Assembly: GCA_903889915.1 (NCBI GenBank)
Contig: CAISZK010000029.1
Span: 1 to 59,116 of the forward strand
Reading direction: 5' to 3'
Source: an uncultured Bacteroidota bacterium
Lineage (GTDB): Bacteria > Bacteroidota > Bacteroidia > Bacteroidales > CG2-30-32-10
Length of the DNA stretch: 59,116 bases
Under the pieces are notes generated by a model that did not search any database, was not told the origin of the DNA, and worked only from the letters and a program-made list of their open reading frames with translations. Below, in pieces: positions 7,746 through 59,116 of the stretch; the stretch's first letter is position 1, and the number at the start of each line of letters is the position of its first letter. A program made the translations under genes and the position numbers.

Positions 7746-7805
7746 TCAATGATTATTTTAAGCAGTAATTGATCTGTAATGGGCATTCTCTTGCGCTACT
7801 TCCGC

Positions 7806-7897
7806 CAATGACCAATGTCTCATTGACTATTGACTATTGACTATTGACAAATGACCAATGACTATTGACTATTGACTATTGACCAATGACCATTGAC
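7806..7897. repeat. Heptamer array (A/T)(A/T)TGAC(N) between convergent genes
   Basis: caatgaccaatgtctcattgactattgactattgactattgacaaatgaccaatgactattgac... Confidence 0.8.
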
Positions 7898-9571
7898 TTA
7901 TTTACAATGTTCTTCGTAAGCTGATTTCGCCTCATAATAGTTCAATTTCATTGCCTCTTCAAAATCCAGGCATGCTTCCGTTTTTTTGCCAAGAAGAATG
8001 CGCACAAAAGCACGTTTATAATAGGCTTCCGCCAAAGTTGAATCAAGTGCAACAGCTTTCGAAAAACTTAGATCAGATTTGTCGTATTGCTTATTGTACA
8101 TGTAGGCATAGCCCAGATCCATCTCTGTTTTGGCTAATTTGGGGTTAATGCTTAAAGCTTTATTGAGGTCCTGAATGGATGATTCATAATCCTCAAGAAT
8201 GTTATAATATTCAGATCTGGCAATATAGATTTGTATGCAGGCTGAATCAACCTTGATGGCTGCCTTGTAATCCGCAAAAGCTTTGGCGCTATCATCAAGC
8301 GCCCGGTAGAAATAGGCCTGAATCAGATAAGCCGGAATATATTTATTATTCAGTTCAAGGCTGTGAGCAATATCCGTTTGTGCACTGTCAATATTTTCTT
8401 TGCCTGCATAAGCCAACCCACGTAAATAGTAATAATTGCAATTATTCGGGTTTAGTTTCATTGCATCGGTATAGTCTCTTATAGCATCATTGAAATAACC
8501 TGTTTGAAGATAACAATTCCCCCTGCTGAATAAAATGAAACCTTCCGTTGGATTGAGTTCGGCAGCCCTGGTAAGATTATAAATTACACCCTGCAGATTT
8601 TTAAGTTTAATATTGATATAAGCACGTAACAGAAAAGACTGGCTGTCGTTGTTGTCAATTTTGATTGCCTTGCTCACATAGGTTATCGCTTTGTCATTTT
8701 CGCCAAGGACATAGTACATAAAAGCTTTGCTGTAAATGGCCGGGACGCTAAGCGAATCAATTTTTAAAGCGCTTTCAAAATCGTATTTCGCATATTCAAA
8801 TTGCTGCTGAAAACAATAGACATTCCCGCGGTAAACATAGGCCGGCAGATAGCCCGGGTTTATGGCAATCGCCTTCGTAAGATCATCGAGCGAACTGCTG
8901 AAATCTTCCATTGAATAGTATAGGATGCCCCGGTTTATAAGCGGGATGCAGTTCGTTGAATTCCCTGATTTGACAGCCGCCGAAAAATCGGCCAAAGCAG
9001 GTGTGCTTTTCTTCAAATTATAATTTACGATGCCCCTGTTATTATAAACATAAAGATCGCCATCGGTTTTTGAAAGATATTTCGTGAAAGCTTCAAGCGC
9101 CTTGTTGTAATTGCCGAGGCAGGTATATGCAAGTCCCAGGTTGTGGTAAGAATAAGTGTAATCAGAGTCGGTTTCAATGGCTATGAGCAGGTCGTGCAAA
9201 GCCTTTTCATGTTCACCAGTCATCAGATAAACATATCCCCGCAGGTTGTAAGCTTCCGCAAAATTAATGTCGGCAGCGATGGCATCAGTGATAGATGATT
9301 CTGCACGGGAATATTCCTTGTCACCGCACTGTTCAATTCCCTTTTCATAAAATTCTTTTGCTTTTTTTGAGACATGCGATTTTACTTCTTTTTCAAGTGA
9401 AACAGGAATATCCAACAAAATAAAGTTTGCTTTCCTTGTCATCCGCCAATTGAGTGTGTCCTGTGAAAAAAGAAGGGAGGGGAAAATGAGGACAATTGCA
9501 AACAGACAAACCCCGGGAAGATATTTTATTTTCCGGATTTTATAAAGGTTACTGTGTAAGCAAAAATGCAT
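7898..9571 (-). CDS. TPR repeat protein with an N-terminal membrane or signal segment
   Basis: Many 34-aa TPR motifs (…AEAYNLRGYVYL…, …YNNRGIVNY…). Confidence 0.75.
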   Translation of the reverse strand: MHFCLHSNLYKIRKIKYLPGVCLFAIVLIFPSLLFSQDTLNWRMTRKANFILLDIPVSLEKEVKSHVSKKAKEFYEKGIEQCGDKEYSRAESSITDAIAADINFAEAYNLRGYVYLMTGEHEKALHDLLIAIETDSDYTYSYHNLGLAYTCLGNYNKALEAFTKYLSKTDGDLYVYNNRGIVNYNLKKSTPALADFSAAVKSGNSTNCIPLINRGILYYSMEDFSSSLDDLTKAIAINPGYLPAYVYRGNVYCFQQQFEYAKYDFESALKIDSLSVPAIYSKAFMYYVLGENDKAITYVSKAIKIDNNDSQSFLLRAYINIKLKNLQGVIYNLTRAAELNPTEGFILFSRGNCYLQTGYFNDAIRDYTDAMKLNPNNCNYYYLRGLAYAGKENIDSAQTDIAHSLELNNKYIPAYLIQAYFYRALDDSAKAFADYKAAIKVDSACIQIYIARSEYYNILEDYESSIQDLNKALSINPKLAKTEMDLGYAYMYNKQYDKSDLSFSKAVALDSTLAEAYYKRAFVRILLGKKTEACLDFEEAMKLNYYEAKSAYEEHCK

Positions 9572-26116: not shown

Positions 26117-27415
26117 TTAAAAATTCCCAATTTCAGAAATTGCATACAGCGGCAAATTTATCAGCCAGTCCTCTTTCTTGTAATCAGACATTGAACTCCT
26201 GACAGCTATGACCGGGTTATACTTCTGGCAGAATACCTTTAAACTTTTAGCCTGCAAATTTTCTTCAGCTTTCACTTCTACCGGGATAACCTTTCCATTA
26301 TGCTGTATGATAAAATCAATTTCAGCAGTTGATTTTTCTGCTGACCAATAATAAACATTAAATTCTTTTTCAGAAACCAATTGCTGCAAAACATATTGTT
26401 CAGTGAGGGCTCCCTTAAACTCTTTAAAAATGGCATTACCTTCCAGTAATGTTTTGACATCAATGTTTCCCATTGCTGAAAGTAGTCCAATATCAACAAA
26501 AAATAATTTGAAAGAAGAAAAATCCAAATATGCTTTAAGCGGAATGGCACTGTTAGACACACGGCTGACTTTATGTATAAGACCACCGTCAATCAACCAA
26601 GCCATTGCTATTTCATAATCTTTTGCCCTGGTGCCTTCTTTAATGACACCATAAATAAACTTACGATTTTCTTTTGCCAATTGTGCAAGGACGGAGTTCC
26701 ATAACATTCTTACCTTAGGAACAATTTCATGAGGCGCATGTTTTGAAAAATCCAGTTCGTAAGCCTCCAAAATTTGTTTTTGTATCTCACGGACTTCTGC
26801 ATAATCATTACGCTCACGAAAGGCATTTACAACTTCTGGCATACCGCCGATAAAATAATATTGACGCAAAAGTTGAATATATTTTTGTTTAAAGGTTTTT
26901 ATTAAATCCCATTTTTTGTCCTCAAGAAGCGACACCAGATTTTTTTGCCCAAGAGCCGTCATAAATTCAGTAAGTCGCAATGGATGCAGATCCAGAAATT
27001 CCACTTTACCAACCGGGAAAGAGGTATGCCTGTGCAAAGCGACACCCAGTAAAGAGCCGGCAGCAAGTACATGATATCCGGGAGTGTTTTCATGAAAATA
27101 TTTTAGCGATGTGAGCGCTCCTTCTGCTTCCTGAATTTCATCAAGAATGATCAAGGTGTTGTTTTCATTGAATAATACGCCTGTTTCAATTTGCAAGGCT
27201 TCAACTATCCTGTCAATATTGAAATCCTCCTTAAAAATATTTTGAAGATGTTTGCTGCTCTCAAAATTGACATAAATACACTGTTCGTATTCCCGCTTTC
27301 CAAATTCTTTCATCAGCCAGGTTTTGCCGACCTGACGAGCACCTCTTAAAAGTAAGGGCTTTCTGGTTTTGGATCTTTTCCATCGTTTTAATATCTCTAT
27401 TTCGGCTCTTTCCAT
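26117..27415 (-). CDS. AAA family ATPase (AAA_14 + DUF4143 type)
   Basis: LLLRGARQVGKT Walker A and LIILDEIQ Walker B. Paralog of 39436-40773 and 42372-43499. Confidence 0.8.
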   Translation of the reverse strand: MERAEIEILKRWKRSKTRKPLLLRGARQVGKTWLMKEFGKREYEQCIYVNFESSKHLQNIFKEDFNIDRIVEALQIETGVLFNENNTLIILDEIQEAEGALTSLKYFHENTPGYHVLAAGSLLGVALHRHTSFPVGKVEFLDLHPLRLTEFMTALGQKNLVSLLEDKKWDLIKTFKQKYIQLLRQYYFIGGMPEVVNAFRERNDYAEVREIQKQILEAYELDFSKHAPHEIVPKVRMLWNSVLAQLAKENRKFIYGVIKEGTRAKDYEIAMAWLIDGGLIHKVSRVSNSAIPLKAYLDFSSFKLFFVDIGLLSAMGNIDVKTLLEGNAIFKEFKGALTEQYVLQQLVSEKEFNVYYWSAEKSTAEIDFIIQHNGKVIPVEVKAEENLQAKSLKVFCQKYNPVIAVRSSMSDYKKEDWLINLPLYAISEIGNF

Positions 27416-27816: not shown

Positions 27817-28863
27817 TTATTTTTTTCCTCCCGCAAGATCATATTCCAAATCAAATGGCTTTGCATACCGCGCCGAGGCTAATTTTAGTTTCTCTGCAAT
27901 TTTGTTCTTTAACCGCCGTGGAGCCAATACCTGCATAGATTCACCAAAGCCAAGTATCTCCCTTTCCAGTTCAAAATTCCATATTACCTTTATGGAAAAT
28001 ATCATTCCATTTTCATACTCTTTGACAATTTTTTGTGTAGAATGCAGGGGTTTTGTACAAATGTAAGGTGCGTTCACTTTGTCAACCCACAGAACAATGT
28101 TATAATCGCGTTGAGTGAGCCCTTTTGTGACGCCTATTACATCGTCATAATAAGTGTCAATATTGATGGTGGTGTTTTTTAAATATTTTTCCTTTGCTTC
28201 AGTGATGTCAATTATTCTGTCAAGAGCAAGTGTGAGTATGCTTTTGTTAGATTTTGCACCTAAAATAAACCAGCGGTTTCTGTATTCTTTCAGCAGGTAA
28301 GGGCTAAAGACAAACTTATTCGCTTCTCTTGCTTTGAATGATTTGTAGTTAATTTCGATGGCTTTGTTTGAAACGATAGCTTTGTGAATTGGGTCAATAA
28401 ATTCAAGGCCTTTCAGCAAATCGTTTTTCTCGAAATTGATATAAGCCTTTCCTTTGTGCTGCTGACTGAATAATTTATCTTCAAGTTTACTTACCATTAC
28501 TGTCAACTCCTGAAAGTATCCAAAACCCTTGAATTGCTTCAGCACAGCCACCACTTCATTGAGTGTGCCCAGATCCTGTTTTGTCAGTGGGACATTGCTA
28601 ATGCTGAATCCTTTTTCTGCATAAGTGTAGAATTTTTTATCTGTTACAATAATCGGTGCATTATAGCCCAGTTTCTCACTGCGCATATTTTGCAAATCAA
28701 GTTGTATTGCGCGTTTGCTCACACCCTGTGTGATTCCTTCATATTCGTACAACGCATCCGAACAAGCTTCGACAAGATCATCAAGGGTCCATTTGCGGAA
28801 ACGGTTTTGCAAACAGTTATCTATTGTTTTGTAGCGTATCAGTGCAAGTTTGTTTATTGACAT
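27817..28863 (-). CDS. WYL domain-containing transcriptional regulator (HTH-WYL)
   Basis: C-terminal ...NRWFILGAKSNKSILTLALDRI... WYL-type motif. N-terminal winged-helix-like region. Confidence 0.65.
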   Translation of the reverse strand: MSINKLALIRYKTIDNCLQNRFRKWTLDDLVEACSDALYEYEGITQGVSKRAIQLDLQNMRSEKLGYNAPIIVTDKKFYTYAEKGFSISNVPLTKQDLGTLNEVVAVLKQFKGFGYFQELTVMVSKLEDKLFSQQHKGKAYINFEKNDLLKGLEFIDPIHKAIVSNKAIEINYKSFKAREANKFVFSPYLLKEYRNRWFILGAKSNKSILTLALDRIIDITEAKEKYLKNTTINIDTYYDDVIGVTKGLTQRDYNIVLWVDKVNAPYICTKPLHSTQKIVKEYENGMIFSIKVIWNFELEREILGFGESMQVLAPRRLKNKIAEKLKLASARYAKPFDLEYDLAGGKK

Positions 28864-29319: not shown

Positions 29320-29550
29320 GTTTTGTTGTGTGTCGTGGGTTCGACTCCCACTCCGTGAAAGCGGATAACTCAGGCGGATAGAGTAACAACACTGCGCAGG
29401 TTCGAATCCTGCTCCCAATCAAAAATCGGGATAACTCAATTGGTAGAGTATTGGACTGTTAATCCAATGATGAAGAATGCCACTTCTGAAAAGGCAACCG
29501 GAAAAGAAAGGAATAATGTTGCTCTGTGGTTCAATCCACGATCAGGCCAT
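29320..29550 (+). other. Cluster of tRNA-derived fragments. No complete tRNA could be folded by eye; these may be pseudo-tRNAs or att remnants.
   Basis: T-arm plus acceptor-like segments GTGGGTTCGACTCCCAC, GCAGGTTCGAATCCTGCTCCCAATCA and GTGGTTCAATCCACGATCAGGCCA. D-arms ACTCAGGCGGATAGAGT and ACTCAATTGGTAGAGT. One anticodon arm TTGGA-CTGTTAA-TCCAA (GTT, Asn-like). Confidence 0.4.
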
Positions 29551-30985: not shown

Positions 30986-31050
30986 AAGTTCCAAGCTCCA
31001 AATTCCAAGCTCTCTCGCTTCCCTGGAATTTGGATTCTGGATCTTGTAAC

Positions 31051-31086
31051 TAGTGACTAATGACTATTGACTAATGACTGATGACA
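31051..31086. repeat. Heptamer (A/T)ATGAC(N) array
   Basis: tagtgactaatgactattgactaatgactgatgaca. Confidence 0.7.
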
Positions 31087-35325: not shown

Positions 35326-35835
35326 ATGAATGAACTTGTAACTAAAAAAGAAATCATCTCTCAAATCTTTTTTATCAGGGACGTGAAAGCGATGCTCGAT
35401 TTTCATTTGGCATCACTGTACGAAGTTGAGACAAAATAGTTAAAGCGTGCTGTAAGGCGTAATATAGAAAGGTTTCCTGAAGATTTTATGTTTGTTTTAA
35501 GCCAAAATGAACTTCAAAACTTGAGGCGTCAATTTGGCACCTCAAGTTGGGGTGGTTCCCGTTATTTGCCAATGGCATTTACCGAACAGGGAGTAGCAAT
35601 GCTCAGCAGTGTCTTACGAAGTGAAAGATCCGTGAAAATAAACATTGCAATTATGCGGGCATTCGTGAAAATGCGCGAATTGATTGATGATAATAAAGAA
35701 CTGAAAATGCGACTTGATAAAATGGAAGGCAAATACGACAAGCAGTTTCAGATAGTTTTTGAAGCGTTGCGGTCTATAATTGAAAAGAAAAATGAACCCC
35801 GGAAAGCTATAGGGTATAAAACCGTAAAAGAATGA
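35326..35835 (+). pseudogene. ORF6N domain protein (KilA-N-like) interrupted by a single in-frame TAG at 35437-35439
   Basis: [64 protein letters not shown]... is one continuous frame. The downstream ORF 35488-35835 carries the conserved ...WGGSRYLPMAFTEQGVAMLSSVL... core. Confidence 0.7.
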
Positions 35836-37175: not shown

Positions 37176-37723
37176 AAGATAAAAAAAAGTGGCTAAGAGG
37201 AAAGTAAGGTAAGCTTTGCTCTAAGTGGTATTTCAGTTATTATCTTTTCAGATATTTTTAAATATTTTTTTCAAAACATGTATTTGGAATAAAATTTTCT
37301 TATTAATTTTGCACCTTTCGATTTAAGTTATTAACCCCTACTCATAAGTGATAAACATAACTTGGATCTAGTCGATGTTTCATTTTTATGGAACATTCCC
37401 ATAGCTTGGATAACCAGCCATTCCCTGGTGCATTAAATGCATGGTCACCTATAGTGACTCCTCTTTGTGATAATTCGATTTCATAAACCCAAATCGAGTG
37501 ACTCTACTCTTTCCAAAAGAATTTCTTTTGCCTTGAGTAACTATGATCCTTATCCAAAATTAATTTGGAGCAGATGATGTGCGAATTTGTTCGCTATTCT
37601 CCACATGTAATTCGTTTCTATTTCCCGCCCCCTTACTCCCTTCACTTTTACCTGATAGAGGGATAAGGTTAGGGTAAATAAGAAACTGCCTTTTAAAAAC
37701 AATCTTTTAAAAAATTATTTACT

Positions 37724-38635
37724 ATGAAAAATTCAAGTTATGATTATTTCCAGGAAGAACTGGATAATCATGCAAATCAATTAAATCAAATCCCATCTCT
37801 CAACTTCCACCTAACCGGCTCCTGCAACATGCGCTGCCGTTACTGTTTTTCTCATTATGAGAAAGACCATGCTGAACTTGCTATGTCTATGCCCGAACAG
37901 GCACAGATAAAGCTTATCAGAGAATTGTTCACCATTGGCTTTCGCAAGATATCTTTTGCCGGTGGTGAGCCTACCTTGTGCAGACACCTGCCACGGTTGG
38001 TCCAGTTTTCAAAAAATATTGGTTTCACAACCATGCTTGTCACCAATTCATCCCGAATTGATGATGCGTTATTACGAAGTTTTCATGGAAGTCTCGATTG
38101 GCTTTGCATCAGCATTGACAGCCTGAAAACTTCAACAAATCTAGAGATAGGGCGCTGCCTGTCCAATGGTTTTGTTCTATGCGAGGATTATTACAAGCAA
38201 ATTATTGAGCTTGCCAGAGAGCATGGTTTGCGCTTAAAAATAAACACTGTGCTAAGCCGGTTCAACCTCCATGAAAACTTTACCGGTTTCCTGTTGTGGG
38301 CAAAACCCGAACGATGGAAGGTGTTCCAGGTACTGCCTGTTGTTGGGCAAAATGAAACTGCTTTCAATGAATGTTCCATCACTGAGGATGAAATGAGTCT
38401 GTTTCTGACAAAGCATGCATCACTGCAAAAACTGTTCGATATAATTCCGGAAAGAAACAATGACATGAAAGGCTCTTATGTGATGGTAAATCCTTCCGGA
38501 AGATTCTACTGCAACATCAACGGGCAGCATACCTACAGCGATCAGGTACTTGAAGCAGGAGCAAAAATGGCGATTGCTCAAATGTCTTATGATTTCGCGA
38601 AATTCATCAATCGTCAGGGTCTTTATAAATGGTAA
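37724..38635 (+). CDS. Prokaryotic viperin (pVip), a radical SAM enzyme that synthesises ddhNTP
   Basis: CNMRCRYCF (CxxxCxxC). ISFAGGEPTL, LKINTVLSRFN, RWKVFQVLPV and DMKGSYVMVN...LYKW align along the full length to the RSAD2 core. Confidence 0.85.
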   Translation: MKNSSYDYFQEELDNHANQLNQIPSLNFHLTGSCNMRCRYCFSHYEKDHAELAMSMPEQAQIKLIRELFTIGFRKISFAGGEPTLCRHLPRLVQFSKNIGFTTMLVTNSSRIDDALLRSFHGSLDWLCISIDSLKTSTNLEIGRCLSNGFVLCEDYYKQIIELAREHGLRLKINTVLSRFNLHENFTGFLLWAKPERWKVFQVLPVVGQNETAFNECSITEDEMSLFLTKHASLQKLFDIIPERNNDMKGSYVMVNPSGRFYCNINGQHTYSDQVLEAGAKMAIAQMSYDFAKFINRQGLYKW

Positions 38636-38646
38636 CCAATAAACTT

Positions 38647-39183
38647 ATGAAACACAAAATCACTATCAGCGGAAAAGCCGGTTCCGGTAAAAGTACAGTC
38701 TGAAAATTGCTTGCAGAAAAACTTCAGGTTCCATTCCATTCTGTTGGCAACACCACACGCGGGTATGCAAAAAGAAACTTCGGACTTGGCATCATAGAAT
38801 TTCAGCAGTATTGCCTGTCACATCCTGAAGTGGATAAAAAACTGGATGAATATTTCAGTAAAATGGGGCATGAAATGGATGGCTTTGTAATGGACTACAG
38901 GCTGGGATTTCATTTTATTCCTGAGGCATTTCATGTCTTGCTTACGGTGCCTGATGAAATAACTGCTCACCGAGTATTGGCAGCCAAAAGAAATGACGAG
39001 TTTACAACAACTGATTATGAAACGATATTGCTAGAACTAAAGACCAGGAATGCTAAGATGCGCGAGAGGTTTATTAATCAATATAGCGTGGATTACGAAG
39101 ACAAGGTCAATTACAATCTGGTATTAGATGCATCCAAAATAGACCCATTTGAATTAGTTCGCAAGATCAAGGATTCTTTTTAA
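38647..39183 (+). pseudogene. Cytidylate (CMP/nucleotide) kinase-like gene associated with pVip, interrupted by one in-frame TGA at 38701-38703
   Basis: MKHKITISGKAGSGKSTV-TGA-KLLAEKLQVPFHSVGNTTRGY... P-loop and lid are in one frame. The ORF track resumes at TTG 38707. Confidence 0.7.
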
Positions 39184-39189
39184 TGATCT

Positions 39190-39310
39190 GTTTGTGATTT
39201 ATTGGACGCTGATTGTTGCGGATAATGCGGATTTTATTGACTATTGACGTAATGACCAATGACTATGAATGACGCGTAACAAAATGACAATAAATGGCCA
39301 ATGACTTTCG
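39190..39310. repeat. Composite intergenic repeat: core GGACGCTGATTGTTGCGGATAATGCGGATT followed by (A/T)ATGAC heptamers
   Basis: The same module recurs at 40812, 42044, 42152, 43524 and 45975. Confidence 0.85.
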
Positions 39311-39435
39311 ACAACAACAAACTCTTTAAACAATAAACATTTTAAACTACATAGAACTGTTACAAAAAAAGACAATTTTTACCTTGGTTTTAATACATAA
39401 ATTAGTATTTTTGCATTTGGATTTATTACAAAATC

Positions 39436-40773
39436 ATGTTCGATAGGTTAATTATTAGCAGTTTGAAAACCTGGGCTGACAGCAGTCCCTGCAAACCACT
39501 TGTGCTAAGGGGGGCACGACAGGTTGGAAAAACAACATTGGTCAAAGAATTTGCCAAAGAGTTTTCAGTTTTTATTCATCTCAATCTGGAAAAAGAAGAA
39601 CAAAGACGAATCTTTTCCTCAGGCAAAAACTTCCCTGAACTACTTGATGCCATTTTTTATTTGAGCGGAAAAGAGAGGAATAAAGGCAAAACTTTGATAT
39701 TTATTGATGAAATTCAGAACTCGCCAGAAGCTATCGGTTACTTGCGCTATTTTTACGAAGAAGCGCCCGAATTATTTGTCATAGCTGCCGGATCCCTGCT
39801 TGAAAGCATGCTCAACCGGAATATTTCTTTTCCTGTGGGCAGAGTTGACTATATGGCTTTACGTCCATGCTCATTTCTGGAATTTATAGGAGCCTTGGGT
39901 GAACAAGTATCTGCCGAAATGATCACCAGCGGCGCTGTTCCTGGCTTTGCACATGAGAAACTCAAATCATTGTTTCATCGTTATGCACTGATTGGAGGCA
40001 TGCCCGAAATAGTAGCGGTTTATGCTGCTACCGGTGACCTGATCCGGCTGAAAAAGACGTACCAAAGCCTGCTTGCCGGCTTCAGCGATGATGTGGAAAA
40101 GTATGCAAGTAACAATGCAATGATTCACTACATCAGGCATATATTCAAAACAGGGTTTTCTTTTGCCGGGCAAAGGATAAAGTTTGCGAATTTCGGCGTT
40201 TCCGATTATCGCTCGCGTGAAATGGGAGAAGCATTTCGCACACTTGAAAAGACTATGCTGCTCGAATTGATCTATCCTGCCTCGTCTGTCAGCATTCCCA
40301 TCCTGTCTAATTATCGTAAATCACCGAGATTACAATGGGTTGATACAGGACTGGTAAACTATGCTGCAGGCGTACAGCATGAGATATTCACTTCACCAAG
40401 CATAATGACAGCATGGAAGGGCATCATAGCCGAGCATATTACAGGGCAGGAACTATTGGCTTATGATAATGATGTATTGAGCAAAAGACATTTCTGGACC
40501 CGCGAAGAAAAAAACTCAATGGCTGAAATTGATTTCATTTTTAATTATAATGGTATCATCATTCCCGTTGAAGTGAAGTCAGGCGATACTGGCAGGTTGA
40601 GGTCACTACATTTGTTTATGGATGCCGCATCACATAAAATTGCTGTAAGAATTTGCCAGGAGAAGTTTGCTGTAATTGATTTAAAAACCATAAAAGGAAA
40701 ACCATTCCGGCTTATCAGTATTCCTTTTTACCAAATTTCGCAAATCAGTCAAATTTTGGATAAATACGTGTAA
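39436..40773 (+). CDS. AAA family ATPase (AAA_14 + DUF4143 type)
   Basis: LVLRGARQVGKTTL and LIFIDEIQ. Paralog of 26117-27415. Confidence 0.8.
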   Translation: MFDRLIISSLKTWADSSPCKPLVLRGARQVGKTTLVKEFAKEFSVFIHLNLEKEEQRRIFSSGKNFPELLDAIFYLSGKERNKGKTLIFIDEIQNSPEAIGYLRYFYEEAPELFVIAAGSLLESMLNRNISFPVGRVDYMALRPCSFLEFIGALGEQVSAEMITSGAVPGFAHEKLKSLFHRYALIGGMPEIVAVYAATGDLIRLKKTYQSLLAGFSDDVEKYASNNAMIHYIRHIFKTGFSFAGQRIKFANFGVSDYRSREMGEAFRTLEKTMLLELIYPASSVSIPILSNYRKSPRLQWVDTGLVNYAAGVQHEIFTSPSIMTAWKGIIAEHITGQELLAYDNDVLSKRHFWTREEKNSMAEIDFIFNYNGIIIPVEVKSGDTGRLRSLHLFMDAASHKIAVRICQEKFAVIDLKTIKGKPFRLISIPFYQISQISQILDKYV

Positions 40774-40811
40774 AGTGGAAACATTGAACCCTTTTAATGA
40801 CCCAATGAACC

Positions 40812-40926
40812 AAAAAGATTTTTGATTTAAGATTTATAGGACGCTGATTGTTGCAGATAATGCGGATTTTAATAACTATTGACCAATGACAATCAATGAC
40901 TATTGACTTAATGACCAATGACTAAT
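40812..40926. repeat. Composite intergenic repeat (TTTGATTTAAGATTT… core plus heptamers)
   Basis: aaaaagatttttgatttaagatttataggacgctgattgttgcagataatgcggatttt…. Confidence 0.85.
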
Positions 40927-40952
40927 TTTTCAACAACCTAAAAATTAAAACA

Positions 40953-42029
40953 ATGCAAGCAGTTTACATCAACCGTCCTTCGAACCCGGATCAGAAGATA
41001 GAGGAACCAATGGTTTTATACATTCTATGCCTTATTGCAGAAAAGTTTTCGTATTGCTGTGAACTTTCTCTTTTCATTAATATCTGGCAAATGCAGAAAG
41101 TTTGGAATGATAAAACAATATTTAATTTGTACTATAATAACATACCGCCCCGGGCATTTTTTCTTGAGAGAGAAAAGGCTGAGGATATTATGAATGGAGT
41201 CAGAAATGCAAAAAAACATAAGCATAAAAATAAAGATGACCTGGAGGTTATACATTTAGGGATGAAACTTATCAACGACATGAAAGAAGACCTGCTGAGT
41301 TACTTCAAAAGTCATTTAAAAAGAGTCCATATTTACGAAATGATTGATCTGCTTGATGAGAAAATTGCAACAATACTTCCATATATTTTACCTAAAGACA
41401 AAGAATATTACACCAACAACGAGTTATTCCAGTTTCTTCATGAAGTAATTGTTGACAGCGAAGAAATAATGTTTTTCCATTGTTTCCCTGAAGTTTTCAC
41501 TAAAGGAAATGCCCTAAATATTGAAGAGAACAAGCCGGTAATTGACAACAGTAAACAGAATTTTATTTCATTACCACTTTTTAAAATTCCAGGTTGCTCT
41601 GATTTAAGCGCCGCCAATATGAAATACATACGTTCAAAAATGCTCCCATACATTAAACCACTTTCAGAATTAATCTACGAATTGAAGGAAATGGCTGCCG
41701 GTGAAGTTTTTGGTTTGGAATTGTTCAGGAAAGTTCAGGAAATTTATTCCAAAATAAGCATTGAATCACAAAAAATACAAGACCTGATCAAAAATGAAAT
41801 TTATTTTCAGCAATTTATCAATTCAAAAGAAAAGTACATTGATTTTTTTCTATACGCAGGAGTTGGTTCTCTCGATACCCTGATTTACTTATTCCAACGC
41901 AATAAGGTAATTGAAGACTTTTCAGCCACAGCACTCAGGAAAAACATTGAAAGGCAATATGACCTTCAATCATGCGATGCTTTCCTTTATTGGGACATTC
42001 GCGATATGGAAGGGAATATTATAGAGTGA
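40953..42029 (+). CDS. Hypothetical protein
   Basis: 358-aa ORF with no recognisable motif. Flanked by the composite repeats. Confidence 0.45.
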   Translation: MQAVYINRPSNPDQKIEEPMVLYILCLIAEKFSYCCELSLFINIWQMQKVWNDKTIFNLYYNNIPPRAFFLEREKAEDIMNGVRNAKKHKHKNKDDLEVIHLGMKLINDMKEDLLSYFKSHLKRVHIYEMIDLLDEKIATILPYILPKDKEYYTNNELFQFLHEVIVDSEEIMFFHCFPEVFTKGNALNIEENKPVIDNSKQNFISLPLFKIPGCSDLSAANMKYIRSKMLPYIKPLSELIYELKEMAAGEVFGLELFRKVQEIYSKISIESQKIQDLIKNEIYFQQFINSKEKYIDFFLYAGVGSLDTLIYLFQRNKVIEDFSATALRKNIERQYDLQSCDAFLYWDIRDMEGNIIE

Positions 42030-42043
42030 CTTATGACCTTATA

Positions 42044-42286
42044 AAGATTTAAGATTTTGACTTATTTGACGCAGATTGTTGGGATAATGCGGATTTTAAT
42101 GACTATTGGCTCAATGACTAATGACTATCAATGACGTAAAACAAATGACCTAAAAAGATTTGAGATTTTTGATTTAAGATTTTTTGAACGCTGATTGTTG
42201 CGGATACCGCGAATTCAATGACTATTGACCAATGACAATGAATGACGTGAAACAAATGACACGAAGTAAATGACTATTGACATAAT
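42044..42286. repeat. Two tandem copies of the composite intergenic repeat
   Basis: Copies at 42044-42150 and 42152-42286. Confidence 0.85.
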
Positions 42287-42371
42287 GTCTTAAAATAATA
42301 GCGTTTTTTCCTGACTGATTTAACAAAAAATATCTATCTTTGCTGACTGAATTTATAAAAATTGAGTCAGC

Positions 42372-43499
42372 ATGATAACCCGATTTATAAAAAAACAGAT
42401 ACTTGATTCGGTTGCAAAACCAAATAAAGTGACAGGAATTTTTGGCGCCCGCCGAACAGGAAAAACATTCCTGATGGAGGAAATAAGAAAAGAACTTAAG
42501 CGTGAAAAGATCCTGATGGTACAAGGCGAAAATCTTGATGTGGCTGAAATACTCTCAAGTCGCCGGCTTAGCCTGTTGCAACAAATGGTGCAGGGTTACA
42601 AATACCTCTTCATTGACGAAGCCCAGAAAATTCCTGATATTGGTACTAACCTAAAACTAATGGTTGATTCCATCAAAGGACTGCACATCCTTGTTTCAGG
42701 CTCTTCATCTTTCGATCTGAAAAACAAAATCGGCGAACCGTTGACCGGAAGGAGTAAATACTTTTATTTATATCCCATCGCACAGTTGGAATTGGACGAG
42801 GATTTCTTCACAGCAAAAACTTCACTTGAGAACCGGCTGATATATGGCAGCTATCCACAGGTACTCACAGCCACCAATAATAAAGAACGCATGGAAATTC
42901 TAACATCTTTGCGTGATGGTTATTTGCTGAAAGACATGCTGGAATTGGACAATCAGAAGGACACTATTTTCGTTTTTAACCTGCTTCGGTTAATTGCTTT
43001 CCAGGTTGGCAATGATATTTCCTTCACCGAACTTGCTTCAAATTTGAATGTGAACAAACTTACTGTGATGCGTTACCTTGACCTGCTTGAAAAATGTTAT
43101 GTGCTCTTTTCTCTGAGGGGTTTCAGCCGTAACCTGCGCAAAGAATATACGAAAAGTCCACGCTATTACTTTTGGGACAACGGCATCAGGAATATTTTAA
43201 TTGCAAATTTAAACCCACCCAATATCAGAGATGATATCGGTAAACTATGGGAAAACTACTGCATTTCCGAGCGGTTGAAGAAGTGTCATTACACACGAAA
43301 AACTGTAAACCATTATTTCTGGAGGACCTACGATCAGAAAGAAATAGACCTTGTTGAGGAAGGTTCCGGCAAACTAAAAGGGTATGAAATAAAATGGACA
43401 AAATCGAAAGTAAAGCCACCAAAGGATTTTCTGGAAGCATACGGCAATGCTTCATTTCACGTGATCAACAGGGATAATTACCTTGATTTTATTACTTAA
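42372..43499 (+). CDS. AAA family ATPase (AAA_14 + DUF4143 type)
   Basis: GIFGARRTGKTFL and LFIDEAQK. Confidence 0.8.
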   Translation: MITRFIKKQILDSVAKPNKVTGIFGARRTGKTFLMEEIRKELKREKILMVQGENLDVAEILSSRRLSLLQQMVQGYKYLFIDEAQKIPDIGTNLKLMVDSIKGLHILVSGSSSFDLKNKIGEPLTGRSKYFYLYPIAQLELDEDFFTAKTSLENRLIYGSYPQVLTATNNKERMEILTSLRDGYLLKDMLELDNQKDTIFVFNLLRLIAFQVGNDISFTELASNLNVNKLTVMRYLDLLEKCYVLFSLRGFSRNLRKEYTKSPRYYFWDNGIRNILIANLNPPNIRDDIGKLWENYCISERLKKCHYTRKTVNHYFWRTYDQKEIDLVEEGSGKLKGYEIKWTKSKVKPPKDFLEAYGNASFHVINRDNYLDFIT

Positions 43500-43523
43500 T
43501 ATTTACAATAAATACGGTTAAAA

Positions 43524-43735
43524 AAATTTGAGATTTTTGATTTAAGATTTTTGATTTATTGAACGCTAATTGTTGCAGATAATGCGGATTCAATGACTAT
43601 TGACTATTGACTATTGACTCAATGACTATAAATGACGCCCCGCATTTGGCGGAATAGACTCCGCAAATGACGTACAACAAATGACTATAAATGACGCGCA
43701 GCAAATGACTTAATGACCAATGACTATTGACTATC
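43524..43735. repeat. Composite intergenic repeat with an extended heptamer array
   Basis: ...tttgatttaagatttttgatttattgaacgctaattgttgcagataatgcggattcaatgactattgactattgac... Confidence 0.85.
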
Positions 43736-46257: not shown

Positions 46258-46530
46258 GAGACCTCTTGCTGAGTAAATGAAACCTTTCGCTGAGCGAATG
46301 AAACCTTTCACTAAGTGAATGAGACTTCTCACTGAGTAAATGAAACCTCTCGCTGAGTGAATGAGATCTCTCACTGAGTGAATGAAACCTCTCGCTGAGT
46401 GAATGAAACCTCTCACTGAGTGAATGAAACCTCTCGCCGAGTGAATGAAACCTCTCGCTGTGTGAATGAGACTTCTCACTGAAGGAATGAATACTCTCAC
46501 TGAGTGAATGAGACCTCTCACTAAGTGAAT
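46258..46530. repeat. 21-bp direct tandem repeat, ~13 copies, with no spacers
   Basis: Consensus CTGAGTGAATGAAACCTCTCG. On the minus strand it reads as the heptad peptide repeat SVRGFIH inside ORF 46249-46596. Confidence 0.85.
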
Positions 46531-46757
46531 GGTCTCTTTCCCTTTGGCAACATAATTATTCAACAGAGACATGTATAATGTTATTTTTCGAGTCAATGAT
46601 TTGCAAAAATATTTAAGATGAAATTTGAAATAGAAAGACTATTAATGAACGGAAATAAAAAAACGGATTCTCTTCGATGTGTTGAATTCAACCCGTTTTA
46701 TTGAAATTTCTAAATTGAAAAACTATTTCATGAGGTTTCTGAATTTACGTCAAAACA

Positions 46758-49209: not shown

Positions 49210-49245
49210 TAATGACTAATGACCACTGACTAATGACCACTGACA
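49210..49245. repeat. Heptamer array overlapping the dxr start
   Basis: taatgactaatgaccactgactaatgaccactgaca. Confidence 0.7.
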
Positions 49246-56261: not shown

Positions 56262-56378
56262 CAGTCAAAAGTCATTAGTCAATAGTCATTGGTCAATAGT
56301 CATATGATCCTTGCAAATAACCAATGACTGCTGACTAATAACTAATGACTACTGACCATTGACAAATGACAATTAATA
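56262..56378. repeat. Inverted heptamer array (GTCATT×n then AATGAC×n)
   Basis: gtcattagtcaatagtcattggtcaatagtcat ... aatgactgctgactaataactaatgactactgaccattgacaaatgac. Confidence 0.8.
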
Positions 56379-56379
56379 A

Positions 56380-58101
56380 ATGAAACAAAAAACCCCGATA
56401 ATATTATTCTTCTTTATCCTCATTCTCTTTTCATCTTGTGGGATATTTAAGCATTCTAAGAAATCAGCGCTTACACAGGATCAGAAATTAGAAAATACTG
56501 CTGAATTTATTGATGGTTGCAGGGAGAAAGCTCTTCTGGATTATGATAAAGCAATTACATGTTTTTTAAAATGTATCAAAACCGATCCCTCCAATGCTGC
56601 TGCAATGTATGAGGTGGCCGGGATTTATTATTTGCAGAAAAAGAGTAAAGATGCAATGCCGTTGGCTGAAAAAGCAGTTAAACTTGATCCTGACAATAAC
56701 TGGTACCAGATGCTTTATGCAAACCTTTTAATTGATGCCTTGCGATACAAGGAAGCCAGGGCTATTTATGAAAAGTTAGCCAAAGCCAATCCCGGCAATG
56801 TTGAATACTATTTCGACTGGGCCGACGGATGTATCTATATGGGAAAATACCAGGAAGCTATTGATGTGTACGATGAGGTTGAGAAAAAACTGGGCGTTAG
56901 TGAAGAGTTGTCTTTGCAGAAAGAAAAAATCTATCTTGAATTAAAGAAAACAGATAAGGCAATTGAAGAAATTCAAAAGCTCGTTGATGCGTTTCCGACC
57001 GAAACAAGCTATTATAATTACCTTGCAGACCTGTATCTGAAAACCGGTAATACCAGCAAAGCTTATGAAATTTACAAGAAGATTCTTGAAATTAATCCTG
57101 CCGATGCGAATGTGCACTTATCTCTGGCTGATTATTACCGTAAGGTAAATGAGAAAGATAAATCTTTTGATGAACTGAAGCTTGCCTTTTCTAACCCCGG
57201 TCTGGATATTGATGCCAAGGTAAAAATACTTTTGTCCTACTACACCCTTACTGAAAAATCGGATGAACTCAAGGAGCAGGCTTATGCTTTGCTGGATCTG
57301 ATGATGAAGTCTGATTCAAATGAAGCCAAAGCACATTCCATCTACGCCGATTTTTTGTATCGTGATAAAAAAGTGAAGGAAGCCCGTGATCAATATTTAA
57401 AGGTTGTAGCCATTGATAGCAGCAAATTTGCAGTGTGGAAAGAATTATTGGCATTGGAAGCTGAATTGAATGATAATGCCGGCCTGGAAAAGCAAAGCAA
57501 ACGAGCCATCAGTATGTTTCCTGAACAGTACATATTGTACTTGTATAATGGGATTGCTGAATATTCGCTGAAAAAATATGATGAGGCCATTACCTCCCTG
57601 AACAAGGGAGTTGCGCTTGTGGTTTATGATGATGCCATGCTCGAAGAGTTCTACACCTACCTTGGCAACTGCTATTATGAAAAGAAAAATTACAAAGACG
57701 CTTATCTCGCATTTGACAAAGTTCTGGATATTGATCCTAAAAATGTTCTTGTCCTGAACAACTATGCATACTATCTTTCAGAGCAGGGTGAAGACCTTGA
57801 CAAAGCTGAAAAGATGGCAAAGAAAGCCGTTGATGCCAGCCCCGACAGTTCGTCATATCTCGACACTTATGGCTGGGTGTTTTATGTGGAAAAGAAATAT
57901 TCTAATGCAGAGACGTGGATAAAAAAGGCAATTGACAAAGGAGGAAGCTCCAATTCCACGATTCTCGAACATTACGGTGATGTTCAATACCGGTTGGGCA
58001 ACGTGGATAAAGCCCTTGAATACTGGAAATCCGCAAAAGAAAAAGGCACAGGGTCTGACTCGTTGGATAAGAAAATAACTGATAAAAAAATTGGTGAGTA
58101 G
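56380..58101 (+). CDS. TPR repeat lipoprotein
   Basis: Lipobox LFSSCG. Many TPR units. Confidence 0.7.
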   Translation: MKQKTPIILFFFILILFSSCGIFKHSKKSALTQDQKLENTAEFIDGCREKALLDYDKAITCFLKCIKTDPSNAAAMYEVAGIYYLQKKSKDAMPLAEKAVKLDPDNNWYQMLYANLLIDALRYKEARAIYEKLAKANPGNVEYYFDWADGCIYMGKYQEAIDVYDEVEKKLGVSEELSLQKEKIYLELKKTDKAIEEIQKLVDAFPTETSYYNYLADLYLKTGNTSKAYEIYKKILEINPADANVHLSLADYYRKVNEKDKSFDELKLAFSNPGLDIDAKVKILLSYYTLTEKSDELKEQAYALLDLMMKSDSNEAKAHSIYADFLYRDKKVKEARDQYLKVVAIDSSKFAVWKELLALEAELNDNAGLEKQSKRAISMFPEQYILYLYNGIAEYSLKKYDEAITSLNKGVALVVYDDAMLEEFYTYLGNCYYEKKNYKDAYLAFDKVLDIDPKNVLVLNNYAYYLSEQGEDLDKAEKMAKKAVDASPDSSSYLDTYGWVFYVEKKYSNAETWIKKAIDKGGSSNSTILEHYGDVQYRLGNVDKALEYWKSAKEKGTGSDSLDKKITDKKIGE

Positions 58102-58924: not shown

Positions 58925-59116
58925 AATTGTCATTAGTCATTAGTCAGTAGTCATTAGTCAATAGTCAGTAGTCAGTAGTCAATAGTGACGAATGACCAAA
59001 TAACGAATGACCAAATGACGTATGACAAATGACGTATGACAAATGACGTATGACAAATGACGTATGACAAATGACTAATGACCCCAATGACAAATGACTA
59101 TTGACAAATGACTCAA
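58925..59116. repeat. Long inverted heptamer array (GTCATTA/GTCAGTA repeats then AATGAC/GACGTAT repeats)
   Basis: gtcattagtcattagtcagtagtcattagtcaatagtcagtag...gaatgaccaaatgacgtatgacaaatgacgtatgacaaatgac... Confidence 0.8.

What the first reader, a model, noticed from the sequence alone, without database searches (positions are those of the whole stretch)
37724..39183. Prokaryotic viperin (pVip) with a downstream nucleotide kinase: a known antiviral architecture in a repeat-punctuated locus
The 303-aa radical SAM protein aligns along its whole length with the viperin/RSAD2 core: CNMRCRYCF, ISFAGGEPTL, LKINTVLSRFN, RWKVFQVLPV, MKGSYVMVN…LYKW. pVips make 3'-deoxy-3',4'-didehydro-NTP chain terminators. 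They are commonly encoded next to a CMP/UMP-type nucleotide kinase that supplies the substrate. The gene 12 bp downstream is exactly such a cytidylate-kinase-like P-loop protein.
Basis: partly seen in the sequence, partly recalled or inferred. Interest (0 to 1): 0.7.

Follow-up and report, generated by a model that had tools for sequence, protein, structure and literature searches.

The report
Bacterial viperin with a broken partner kinase
This is an ordinary, intact bacterial viperin (an antiviral enzyme that makes chain-terminating nucleotides) in a Bacteroidales defence island, but the nucleotide kinase gene beside it is cut by a premature stop codon and is most likely a recent pseudogene.

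Summary
The 303-aa ORF at 37724-38635 is a genuine prokaryotic viperin (pVip). It scores 281 bits against NCBIfam viperin_w_prok (cutoff 180) and 317 bits against the PADLOC pVip-kinase model. It aligns end to end with solved viperins, and its AlphaFold model matches mouse viperin at TM 0.84-0.88. MoaA and PqqE score far lower. The CxxxCxxC and GGEP motifs, the beta8-loop Asn264 (the 'promiscuous pocket' class) and the terminal Trp are all present.

The downstream cytidylate-kinase-like gene (ATG 38647 to TAA 39183) is real, and a kinase of this family directly beside a pVip, in either order, is a recurrent arrangement. Relatives carry Gly there (GGA or GGT), so one G-to-T change explains it. 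The genome uses TGA as a normal stop. The TGA is present in five assemblies and two haplotypes. There is no SECIS element or hairpin downstream. A nearby ORF6N gene carries an in-frame TAG, and two other genomes hold decayed kinase remnants next to pVips.

Best reading: a working stand-alone pVip with a recently inactivated helper kinase. The 'repeat-punctuated' aspect is mostly a genome-wide heptamer feature. This is a known architecture of low novelty.

The parts
37724..38635 (+). pVip gene (303 aa), a prokaryotic viperin and radical-SAM ddhNTP synthase. The ORF is intact.
   Evidence: ORF listed. NCBIfam NF038283 viperin_w_prok scores 281 bits against a cutoff of 180. PADLOC pVip models score 317, 269 and 251 bits. 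Solved viperins align at E about 1e-37 over residues 18-303. The AlphaFold model has pLDDT 90.6; the top 30 PDB fold hits are all viperins, with TM 0.84-0.88 to mouse viperin 6q2p/6q2q. All 58 invariant columns of a 39-sequence alignment are retained.
37823..37846 (+). Codons 34-41, CNMRCRYC: the CxxxCxxC motif that binds the [4Fe-4S] cluster.
   Evidence: Position found. C34, C38 and C41 are invariant in alignment A3.
38513..38530 (+). Codons 264-269 of the beta8 loop (N-I-N-G-Q-H). Asn264 aligns with mouse viperin Cys314 and His269 with Lys319; these are the nucleobase-pocket residues.
   Evidence: Alignments to 9dfw and 7n7h. N264 is found in 84 of 84 sequences and H269 in 76 of 84. The pocket classes come from Shomar et al., bioRxiv 10.1101/2023.09.13.557418.
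38647..39183 (+). Cytidylate-kinase-like, viperin-associated kinase gene of 178 codons, interrupted by one nonsense codon. It is most likely a recent pseudogene.
   Evidence: Translation. Pfam Cytidylate_kin2 scores 48.7 bits, the PADLOC pVip-kinase model (kinase half) 172 bits and VakA 86 bits. The closest intact relative is 49% identical.
38647..38700 (+). First 18 codons of the kinase, which include the Walker A P-loop (GKAGSGKST).
   Evidence: G9, A11, G12, S13, G14 and K15 are invariant in alignment A1.
38701..38703 (+). In-frame TGA at kinase codon 19. Relatives have Gly here (GGA or GGT), or Ala in archaeal sequences.
   Evidence: The TGA is present with no mismatches in five assemblies. 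TGA ends 16 of 50 long ORFs in the window.
38707..39183 (+). Residual 158-aa ORF (TTG start) without a P-loop. This is what gene callers annotate.
   Evidence: Gene calls on L001 and L003. P0121.
37176..37723 (+). 548-nt non-coding stretch upstream of pVip. It holds one TAnnTTTG match (37304-37311), the Bacteroidota -7 promoter consensus recalled from my own knowledge. This match is not significant on its own.
   Evidence: No ORF of 60 aa or more and no Rfam family at a meaningful score. The motif occurs 38 times on the + strand of the window.
39191..39288 (+). First of five copies of a local intergenic repeat (core GACGCTGATTGTTGCGGATAATGCGGATT followed by ATTGACT/AATGAC heptamers). It bounds the pVip-kinase pair on the right.
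   Evidence: There is no hairpin: DNA folding z-scores are +0.65 and -0.81 for two copies.

Best explanation
The locus encodes a functional-looking stand-alone prokaryotic viperin. By analogy with characterised viperins (inferred), it uses a [4Fe-4S] cluster and S-adenosylmethionine to convert a ribonucleoside triphosphate into a 3'-deoxy-3',4'-didehydro-NTP. That product terminates RNA chains made by phage polymerases. Its nucleobase pocket is the Asn type found in most prokaryotic viperins, which is associated with promiscuous CTP/UTP/GTP use, so the product cannot be narrowed further from sequence.

The gene immediately downstream is the remnant of a cytidylate-kinase-like helper. In relatives this helper is co-encoded or fused with the viperin, and it presumably feeds NMP to NDP to raise the NTP substrate supply (inferred from the vertebrate RSAD2-CMPK2 pair). 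Here a single GGA-to-TGA nonsense change at codon 19 separates the ATP-binding P-loop from the rest of the enzyme. The kinase is therefore not made as a working protein.

The change is recent: the rest of the frame is intact. It is shared by every sampled copy of this Bacteroidales population. The viperin would now rely on the cell's normal NTP pools, as the majority of bacterial viperins do.
For: pVip identity:
- Curated HMMs score above cutoff.
- The protein aligns over its full length to solved viperins.
- The fold match to mouse viperin has TM 0.84-0.88 and rmsd 2.0-2.3 A, against TM 0.65 or lower for the non-viperin radical-SAM enzymes below them, including MoaA, PqqE and SkfB.
- All invariant residues are retained.

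Pocket class: N264 and H269 align to mouse C314 and K319. The interpretation follows Shomar et al..

Kinase family and arrangement:
- HMM hits are, and the family profile matches bacterial cytidylate kinases best (1q3t, E 3.5e-13).
- Three independent relatives have pVip followed by the kinase with spacers of 2-335 nt.
- 26 of the 120 top pVip hits are fusions.
- 30 of 80 genomic pVip loci have an adjacent kinase.

Nonsense codon:
- The TGA is at 38701-38703.
- Homologous codons are GGA or GGT, and the position is Gly or Ala in 16 relatives.
- TGA is a normal stop in this genome (16 of 50 long ORFs) and GGA is its commonest Gly codon.
- The same allele occurs in five assemblies and in two haplotypes that differ by about 10 SNPs in 20 kb.
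- There is no SECIS or other Rfam hit and no unusual RNA structure downstream (z = +0.67).

Decay context:
- The ORF6N/PDC-S05 gene 2.3 kb upstream has an in-frame TAG at 35437-35439.
- Decayed kinase remnants lie beside intact pVips in Aequorivita xiaoshiensis (L039) and Postechiella marina (L037).

Dispensability: only 12% of bacterial viperins have a kinase nearby (Shomar et al.). The closest pVip relative with readable flanks (P0003, 59% identical) and P0005 (48%) have none.
Against: - Apart from the TGA, the kinase frame has no other stop or frameshift and keeps all 22 invariant residues of its family. This would also fit a gene that is still used. The argument is weak, because the sampled haplotypes differ by 0.1% or less and show no differences at all between 35.3 and 45.7 kb, so secondary lesions are not yet expected.
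- No expression, enzymatic or phage data exist.
- The pVip itself differs from the 90% consensus of 83 relatives at 30 of 119 conserved columns. On a recount that left its two closest relatives out of the consensus there were 32 such columns, 14 of them not shared with those relatives, including Gly109 to Ser in the conserved NGS motif. Full activity is therefore assumed, not shown.
Confidence: 0.8

Rival explanations
1. The kinase is still produced. The UGA at codon 19 is decoded at a useful rate by near-cognate readthrough or a programmed recoding event, giving low or conditional amounts of full-length kinase that tune substrate supply.
For: The frame is otherwise intact with every invariant residue kept. 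The TGA allele is the only one seen in all assemblies. From general knowledge, UGA is the leakiest stop codon in bacteria.
Against: There is no SECIS or other Rfam hit and no stable structure downstream of the UGA. TGA is used as an ordinary terminator throughout the window. A second nearby gene is interrupted by a different stop, TAG, which points to plain decay. The population is too young for intactness to be informative. Kinase remnants decay next to pVips elsewhere.
Confidence: 0.08
2. The whole cassette is decaying. The pVip is also non-functional despite an open frame, and the locus is a relic in a degrading defence island.
For: Two neighbouring genes carry nonsense codons. The pVip has window-specific substitutions at otherwise conserved columns, for example G109S, A96S and F116L.
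Against: All 58 invariant columns are retained, including the cluster cysteines, GGEP, the RWK motif, N264 and the C-terminal W. Most deviations are conservative or shared with the closest relatives (18 of 32). The structure model is confident (pLDDT 90.6).
Confidence: 0.08
3. The TGA is a sequencing or assembly artefact and the real gene is intact.
For: It is a single-base difference from a Gly codon.
Against: The sequence is identical in contigs from JGI, two ENA projects and Logan, which cover at least two haplotypes. Gene callers split the gene in each of them.
Confidence: 0.03
4. The TGA encodes glycine because the cassette came from, or is read in, a code-25 organism (Gracilibacteria/SR1).
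For: The interrupted position is Gly in all bacterial relatives.
Against: The host is a Bacteroidales-like genome that ends 16 of 50 long ORFs in TGA. GGA is its commonest Gly codon, and it is used three times each in the pVip and the kinase. There is only one in-frame TGA in 481 codons of the pair.
Confidence: 0.01

Closest known systems
Prokaryotic viperins (pVips; Bernheim et al. 2021, Nature 589:120; NCBIfam NF038283, PADLOC PDLC02903-02905)
   Same: The domain organisation, the radical-SAM and SAM-binding motifs, the C-terminal extension with the Asn-type nucleobase pocket, the fold and the defence-island setting all match.
   Different: It belongs to a small, divergent sub-branch. Only three database relatives are 59-61% identical, and everything else is 48% or less. 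It has a three-residue deletion near position 54 and several clade-specific substitutions. No product or phenotype is known.
pVip-kinase operons and fusions (PADLOC 'Viperin-kinase fusion' PDLC02905; VakA PDLC02911)
   Same: The kinase family and gene order match. Relatives show pVip followed by the kinase as adjacent genes or as one polypeptide.
   Different: Here the kinase is cut by a nonsense codon after the P-loop. Comparable decay appears in only 2 of 30 kinase-associated genomic loci examined.
Vertebrate RSAD2 (viperin) - CMPK2 gene pair
   Same: A viperin is genetically linked to a pyrimidine NMP kinase that boosts substrate supply (Shomar et al.).
   Different: The window kinase family matches bacterial Cmk-type cytidylate kinases best (E 3.5e-13) and thymidylate-kinase-type enzymes only marginally (E about 6e-4). 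From my own knowledge, CMPK2 is thymidylate-kinase-like. The partnership therefore looks analogous rather than orthologous; no kinase tree was built to test this.

Membership tests
Prokaryotic viperin (pVip) | Radical-SAM CxxxCxxC cluster motif and GGE SAM-binding motif | tested here: met
   C34, C38 and C41 and G80-G81-E82-P83 are present and invariant in alignment A3.
Prokaryotic viperin (pVip) | Score above the curated cutoff of a viperin-specific HMM, and better than other radical-SAM families | tested here: met
   NF038283 scores 281 bits (cutoff 180). The next non-viperin family, MoaA, scores 71 bits (its own cutoff is 284). PADLOC pVip models score 251-317 bits.
Prokaryotic viperin (pVip) | Viperin fold, including the C-terminal extension that closes the NTP site | tested here: met
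   The model (pLDDT 90.6) matches mouse viperin with CTP or UTP bound at TM 0.84-0.88. The top 30 hits are all viperins. The sequence alignment runs to the terminal Trp.
Prokaryotic viperin (pVip) | Conserved beta8-loop Asn at the mouse Cys314 position (the prokaryotic 'promiscuous' pocket) | tested here: met
   N264 is present in 84 of 84 aligned sequences. The class definition comes from Shomar et al..
Prokaryotic viperin (pVip) | Produces a ddhNTP and protects against phage | not testable with these tools
   This needs expression, LC-MS and a phage challenge.
Prokaryotic viperin (pVip) | Located among defence genes | tested here: met
   The neighbours are three PDC-S01 ATPases, a PDC-S05/ORF6N gene and a WYL regulator. 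The PDC families are candidates, not validated systems.
Viperin-associated nucleotide kinase (VakA / pVip-kinase) | NMP-kinase domain homologous to kinases fused or adjacent to pVips | tested here: met
   The PADLOC fusion model (kinase half) scores 172 bits, VakA 86 bits and Pfam PF13189 48.7 bits. The window kinase is 38-46% identical to the kinase domains of fusions.
Viperin-associated nucleotide kinase (VakA / pVip-kinase) | Same strand and directly adjacent to the viperin | tested here: met
   The spacer is 11 nt on the same strand. Relatives share the arrangement.
Viperin-associated nucleotide kinase (VakA / pVip-kinase) | Uninterrupted ORF that joins the Walker A P-loop to the NMP-binding and lid regions | tested here: not met
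   An in-frame TGA sits at codon 19. The remaining 158-aa ORF lacks the P-loop.
(d)CMP kinase, equivalog level (NCBIfam TIGR02173 / TIGR00017) | Score above the curated equivalog cutoff | tested here: not met
   TIGR02173 scores 72.3 bits (cutoff 102.1) and TIGR00017 37.1 bits (cutoff 135.6). The gene is cytidylate-kinase-like, not a housekeeping Cmk.
Integron cassette array (attC-bounded) | Repeats that fold as imperfect hairpins, plus an integrase | tested here: not met
   Two of the three repeat copies folded no better than shuffled sequence (z = +0.65 and -0.81), and the third stretch (z = -2.81) gave only short separate stems rather than one hairpin spanning the unit. No integrase domain was found among the roughly 40 window ORFs scanned against Pfam.

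The most novel reading that the evidence does not exclude
The UGA at the conserved Gly19 codon is not a dead end but a leaky or conditional gate. Low-level readthrough would produce just enough kinase to support ddhNTP synthesis, or the kinase was inactivated under selection because constitutive nucleotide-pool distortion is costly. Together with the Aequorivita and Postechiella remnants, the locus would then document recurrent, possibly selected, shedding of the viperin helper kinase in Bacteroidota.
Probability: 0.07. Interest if true: 0.45.

Novelty: new member of a known kind. Interest (0 to 1): 0.2.

Why it matters
The locus adds one more uncharacterised pVip, from a thinly populated sub-branch, to a well-described antiviral family. 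The only non-routine point is a natural knockout of the helper kinase, caught at its first step, with later stages visible in two other genomes. This is consistent with the helper being dispensable for bacterial viperins, and it offers a ready-made pair for testing what the kinase contributes: the native TGA allele against a repaired GGA allele. For annotation, it warns that the 158-aa 'hypothetical protein' called by pipelines is a kinase fragment.

Tried and rejected
- Alternative genetic code (4 or 25): rejected. TGA terminates 16 of 50 long ORFs and GGA is the commonest Gly codon.
- Selenocysteine or a structured recoding signal: no Rfam hit and no stable hairpin.
- Assembly error: rejected, because five assemblies and two haplotypes are identical at the site.
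- Search for an intact allele: a DNA pattern with N at the mutated base found nothing in genome contigs or metagenome contigs, not even the window allele, so these collections do not hold this population.
- Integron or attC reading of the intergenic repeats: rejected for lack of hairpin structure and integrase.
- ncRNA or small gene in the 548-nt upstream gap: nothing credible. The single TAnnTTTG match is not significant.
- Predicting the ddhNTP product by phylogeny against tested pVips: not possible. Bernheim et al. 2021 is not held in the library and I have no reference sequences with measured products. Only the pocket class could be assigned.
- dN/dS on the kinase: not attempted. The closest relative is 49% identical, so synonymous sites are saturated.

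Full report
**Observation.** Every quoted motif is present. Eleven bases after its TAA, an ATG at 38647 opens a frame that ends at TAA 39181-39183. It reads MKHKITISGKAGSGKSTV*KLLAEKLQVPFHS..., so an in-frame TGA lies at 38701-38703, directly after the Walker A P-loop. The mechanical ORF list, and the gene callers of public assemblies, therefore report only a 158-aa ORF from TTG 38707 that has no P-loop.

**The radical-SAM protein is a viperin.**
- It passes NCBIfam's equivalog model viperin_w_prok (281 bits, cutoff 180). MoaA models reach only 54-71 bits against cutoffs of 231-325.
- PADLOC's three pVip models score 317, 269 and 251 bits. The best is the 'viperin-kinase fusion' model.
- phmmer against the PDB aligns residues 18-303 with fungal, cnidarian and mouse viperins at E about 1e-37 to 1e-34, through to the C-terminal Trp. 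PqqE and MoaA follow at E about 1e-7.
- An AlphaFold2 model built on 39 sequences has mean pLDDT 90.6. Its 30 best PDB matches are all viperins. Mouse viperin with CTP or UTP bound matches at TM 0.84-0.88 and rmsd 2.0-2.3 A. The other radical-SAM enzymes below them stay at TM 0.65 or lower.
- All 58 invariant columns of the alignment are retained. These include C34/C38/C41, GGEP 80-83, S130/D132/S133, K172/N174, R197-W198-K199, Y271/S272, R297, G299, Y301 and W303.
- The protein differs from the 90% consensus of 83 relatives at 30 of 119 conserved columns. On a recount that left its two closest relatives out of the consensus there were 32 such columns, and 18 of them are shared with those relatives (P0002 and P0003, 58-61% identical). 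These shared differences are clade-specific. The window-specific ones are mostly conservative; G109S in the NGS motif is the one worth noting.

**Product.** Shomar et al. (bioRxiv 10.1101/2023.09.13.557418) tie nucleobase selectivity to the beta8-loop residues equivalent to mouse Cys314 and Lys319. Cys plus Lys gives CTP selectivity. A fungal Arg gives UTP selectivity. A conserved Asn at the Cys314 position marks the pocket of most prokaryotic viperins, which is associated with promiscuous CTP/UTP/GTP use. In alignments to 9dfw and 7n7h, the window protein has Asn264 at the Cys314 position and His269 at the Lys319 position. Asn264 is present in 84 of 84 aligned sequences and His269 in 76 of 84. 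The enzyme therefore falls in the Asn class. The exact ddhNTP cannot be predicted here, and I could not read Bernheim et al. 2021 or obtain reference sequences with measured products.

**The kinase family and its arrangement.**
- With the stop masked, the 178-codon frame matches Pfam Cytidylate_kin2 (48.7 bits, cutoff 28), the kinase half of PADLOC's fusion model (172 bits) and VakA (86 bits).
- It stays below the equivalog cutoffs for housekeeping (d)CMP kinases.
- A profile of the family finds bacterial cytidylate kinases first in the PDB (1q3t at E 3.5e-13; 2h92; 1kdo). Thymidylate kinases are only marginal at E about 6e-4.
- Its closest intact relatives are 41-49% identical. Three were looked up, and each lies directly downstream of a pVip with spacers of 2-335 nt.
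- Among the 120 best pVip hits, 26 are pVip-kinase fusions. Most have the kinase at the C-terminus, which is the same order as here.
- A scan of 185,579 species genomes found 344 pVip relatives. Of the 80 best loci, 30 have this kinase directly adjacent: 21 downstream and 9 upstream.

The architecture is thus a known, recurrent one. Shomar et al. report a kinase near 12% of bacterial viperins.

**The stop codon.**
- At the interrupted position, the bacterial relatives in the alignment have Gly and the three Nanoarchaeota-labelled sequences have Ala (GSGKSTVGKLLAEKL).
- The homologous codons in the closest loci are GGA, GGA and GGT, so a single G-to-T transversion explains the TGA.
- The genome uses the standard code. 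TGA ends 16 of 50 long ORFs, GGA is its commonest Gly codon, and GGA is used three times in each of the two genes.
- The TGA is not an assembly error. Contigs from JGI 3300009175, ENA ERZ27245846, Logan SRR5581337 and two BUCK21 samples are identical to the window over the kinase.
- Two of these contigs represent a second haplotype that differs by about ten SNPs in 20 kb, with none between 35.3 and 45.7 kb. Some of these records may be re-assemblies of the same sample, but at least two haplotypes and several biosamples carry the allele.
- No SECIS or other Rfam family is found nearby. The RNA downstream of the UGA folds no better than shuffled sequence (z = +0.67).
- The rest of the frame has no further lesion and keeps all 22 family-invariant residues. 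Given how little the sampled population has diverged, this says only that the lesion is young.

**Context favours decay.**
- The window is a chromosomal contig of an uncultured Bacteroidales-like bacterium. It carries T9SS sorting domains, the pyruvate dehydrogenase complex, Dxr and RseP. Its Dxr is 81% identical to that of a 'Bacteroidales bacterium' MAG.
- The pVip sits in a defence-type island from about 26 to 43.5 kb. The island holds three PDC-S01 (AAA_14/DUF4143) ATPases, a WYL/WCX regulator, Band_7-RtcB-AAA genes, a DUF1643 gene and a PDC-S05/ORF6N gene.
- The ORF6N gene (ATG 35326 to TGA 35835) is itself interrupted by an in-frame TAG at 35437-35439. Two nonsense codons of different kinds within 3.3 kb argue for ordinary mutational decay rather than recoding.
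- Kinase decay beside an intact pVip is seen elsewhere. Aequorivita xiaoshiensis (L039) keeps a remnant with several stops and no P-loop. Postechiella marina (L037) keeps only the last 61 or so residues.
- The closest pVip relative with readable flanks (P0003, 59% identical) and the next one looked up (P0005, 48%) have no kinase at all.

**Repeats.** The heptamer arrays (TGACTAT, TGACCAA, TGACTAA) occur in intergenic DNA across the whole contig, including next to housekeeping genes at 7.8, 49.2, 56.3 and 59 kb. They are a genome-wide feature. A longer unit (core GACGCTGATTGTTGCGGATAATGCGGATT plus heptamers) occurs five times in one orientation. These copies follow the kinase, the first PDC-S01 gene, the 358-aa ORF (twice) and the second PDC-S01 gene. 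No copy lies upstream of the pVip. The units do not fold into hairpins and no integrase is present, so they are not attC sites. Their role is unknown.

**Mechanism.**
- Shown: an intact viperin gene with all catalytic and substrate-site hallmarks, and a kinase gene cut after the P-loop.
- Inferred from the family: the viperin converts CTP, UTP or GTP into ddhNTP chain terminators that block phage transcription. In relatives, the kinase raises the substrate supply, as CMPK2 does for vertebrate viperin.
- Inferred here: the kinase is inactive and the viperin works from normal NTP pools.

I put 0.8 on this combined reading, about 0.08 on functional readthrough, about 0.08 on the viperin also being dead, and very little on an artefact or an alternative genetic code.

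**Verdict.** This is a correct family call with an overlooked pseudogene. It is a new member of a known kind and of low interest (0.2). The modest value lies in the natural kinase knockout and in the evidence that such loss recurs.

Noticed in passing
window 35326-35835 (+): The ORF6N / PADLOC PDC-S05-like gene is interrupted by an in-frame TAG at 35437-35439 (…LYEVETK*LKRAVRRNIERFPEDF…). Gene callers split it into 37-aa and 115-aa pieces. It is a second nonsense-interrupted gene in the same island.
   Followed up: partly
window 29327-29491 (+): Tandem tRNA-like modules lie in the gap between a divergent WYL/WCX regulator gene (27817-28863, - strand) and a Band_7-RtcB-AAA(720 aa) gene row. Rfam tRNA scores 35.3 bits (gathering score 29) at 29425-29491. 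Sub-threshold YrlA (Y RNA-like) hits score 37 and 27 bits (gathering score 69) at 29327-29389 and 29395-29449. ARAGORN calls no tRNA. This resembles the Y-RNA-like/RtcB RNA-repair operons, but no Ro/TROVE gene is present.
   Followed up: partly
window 39191-43640 (+), five copies: A local intergenic repeat of about 43-90 nt (core GACGCTGATTGTTGCGGATAATGCGGATT) occurs in one orientation after four consecutive genes: the kinase, a PDC-S01 gene, the 358-aa unknown ORF and a second PDC-S01 gene. It has no hairpin, no Rfam match in the copy that was scanned (39191-39288) and no known function.
   Followed up: partly
window 7805-7907, 31049-31085, 49210-49244, 56263-56383, 58929-59112 and elsewhere: Tandem heptamer arrays (TGACTAT, TGACCAA, TGACTAA, TGACAAA) fill many intergenic regions of this contig, including between housekeeping genes. 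They appear to be a genome-wide short tandem repeat feature.
   Followed up: partly
window 46261-46531: A 21-nt tandem repeat (about 12.9 copies, unit ACCTCTCACTGAGTGAATGAA) lies in intergenic DNA. The haplotype in L001 has one extra 21-nt unit, so the copy number varies within the population.
   Followed up: no
window 26117-27415 (-), 39436-40773 (+), 42372-43499 (+): Three paralogous AAA_14/DUF4143 ATPases (PADLOC candidate family PDC-S01) lie within 17 kb. Two of them flank a 358-aa ORF (40953-42029) that has no family match.
   Followed up: no
window 5251-6451 (+): A 306-nt tandem repeat (3.9 copies, 89% matches) lies inside the 968-aa T9SS-sorted surface protein gene (4839-7745). It corresponds to repeated Ig/fn3-like domains.
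   Followed up: no
L039 3480-3990 (Aequorivita xiaoshiensis F64183) and L037 3845-4027 (Postechiella marina JCM 17630): Decayed remnants of the same kinase family lie directly upstream of apparently intact pVip genes. L039 has several stops and no P-loop. L037 keeps only the C-terminal 61 or so residues.
   Followed up: partly
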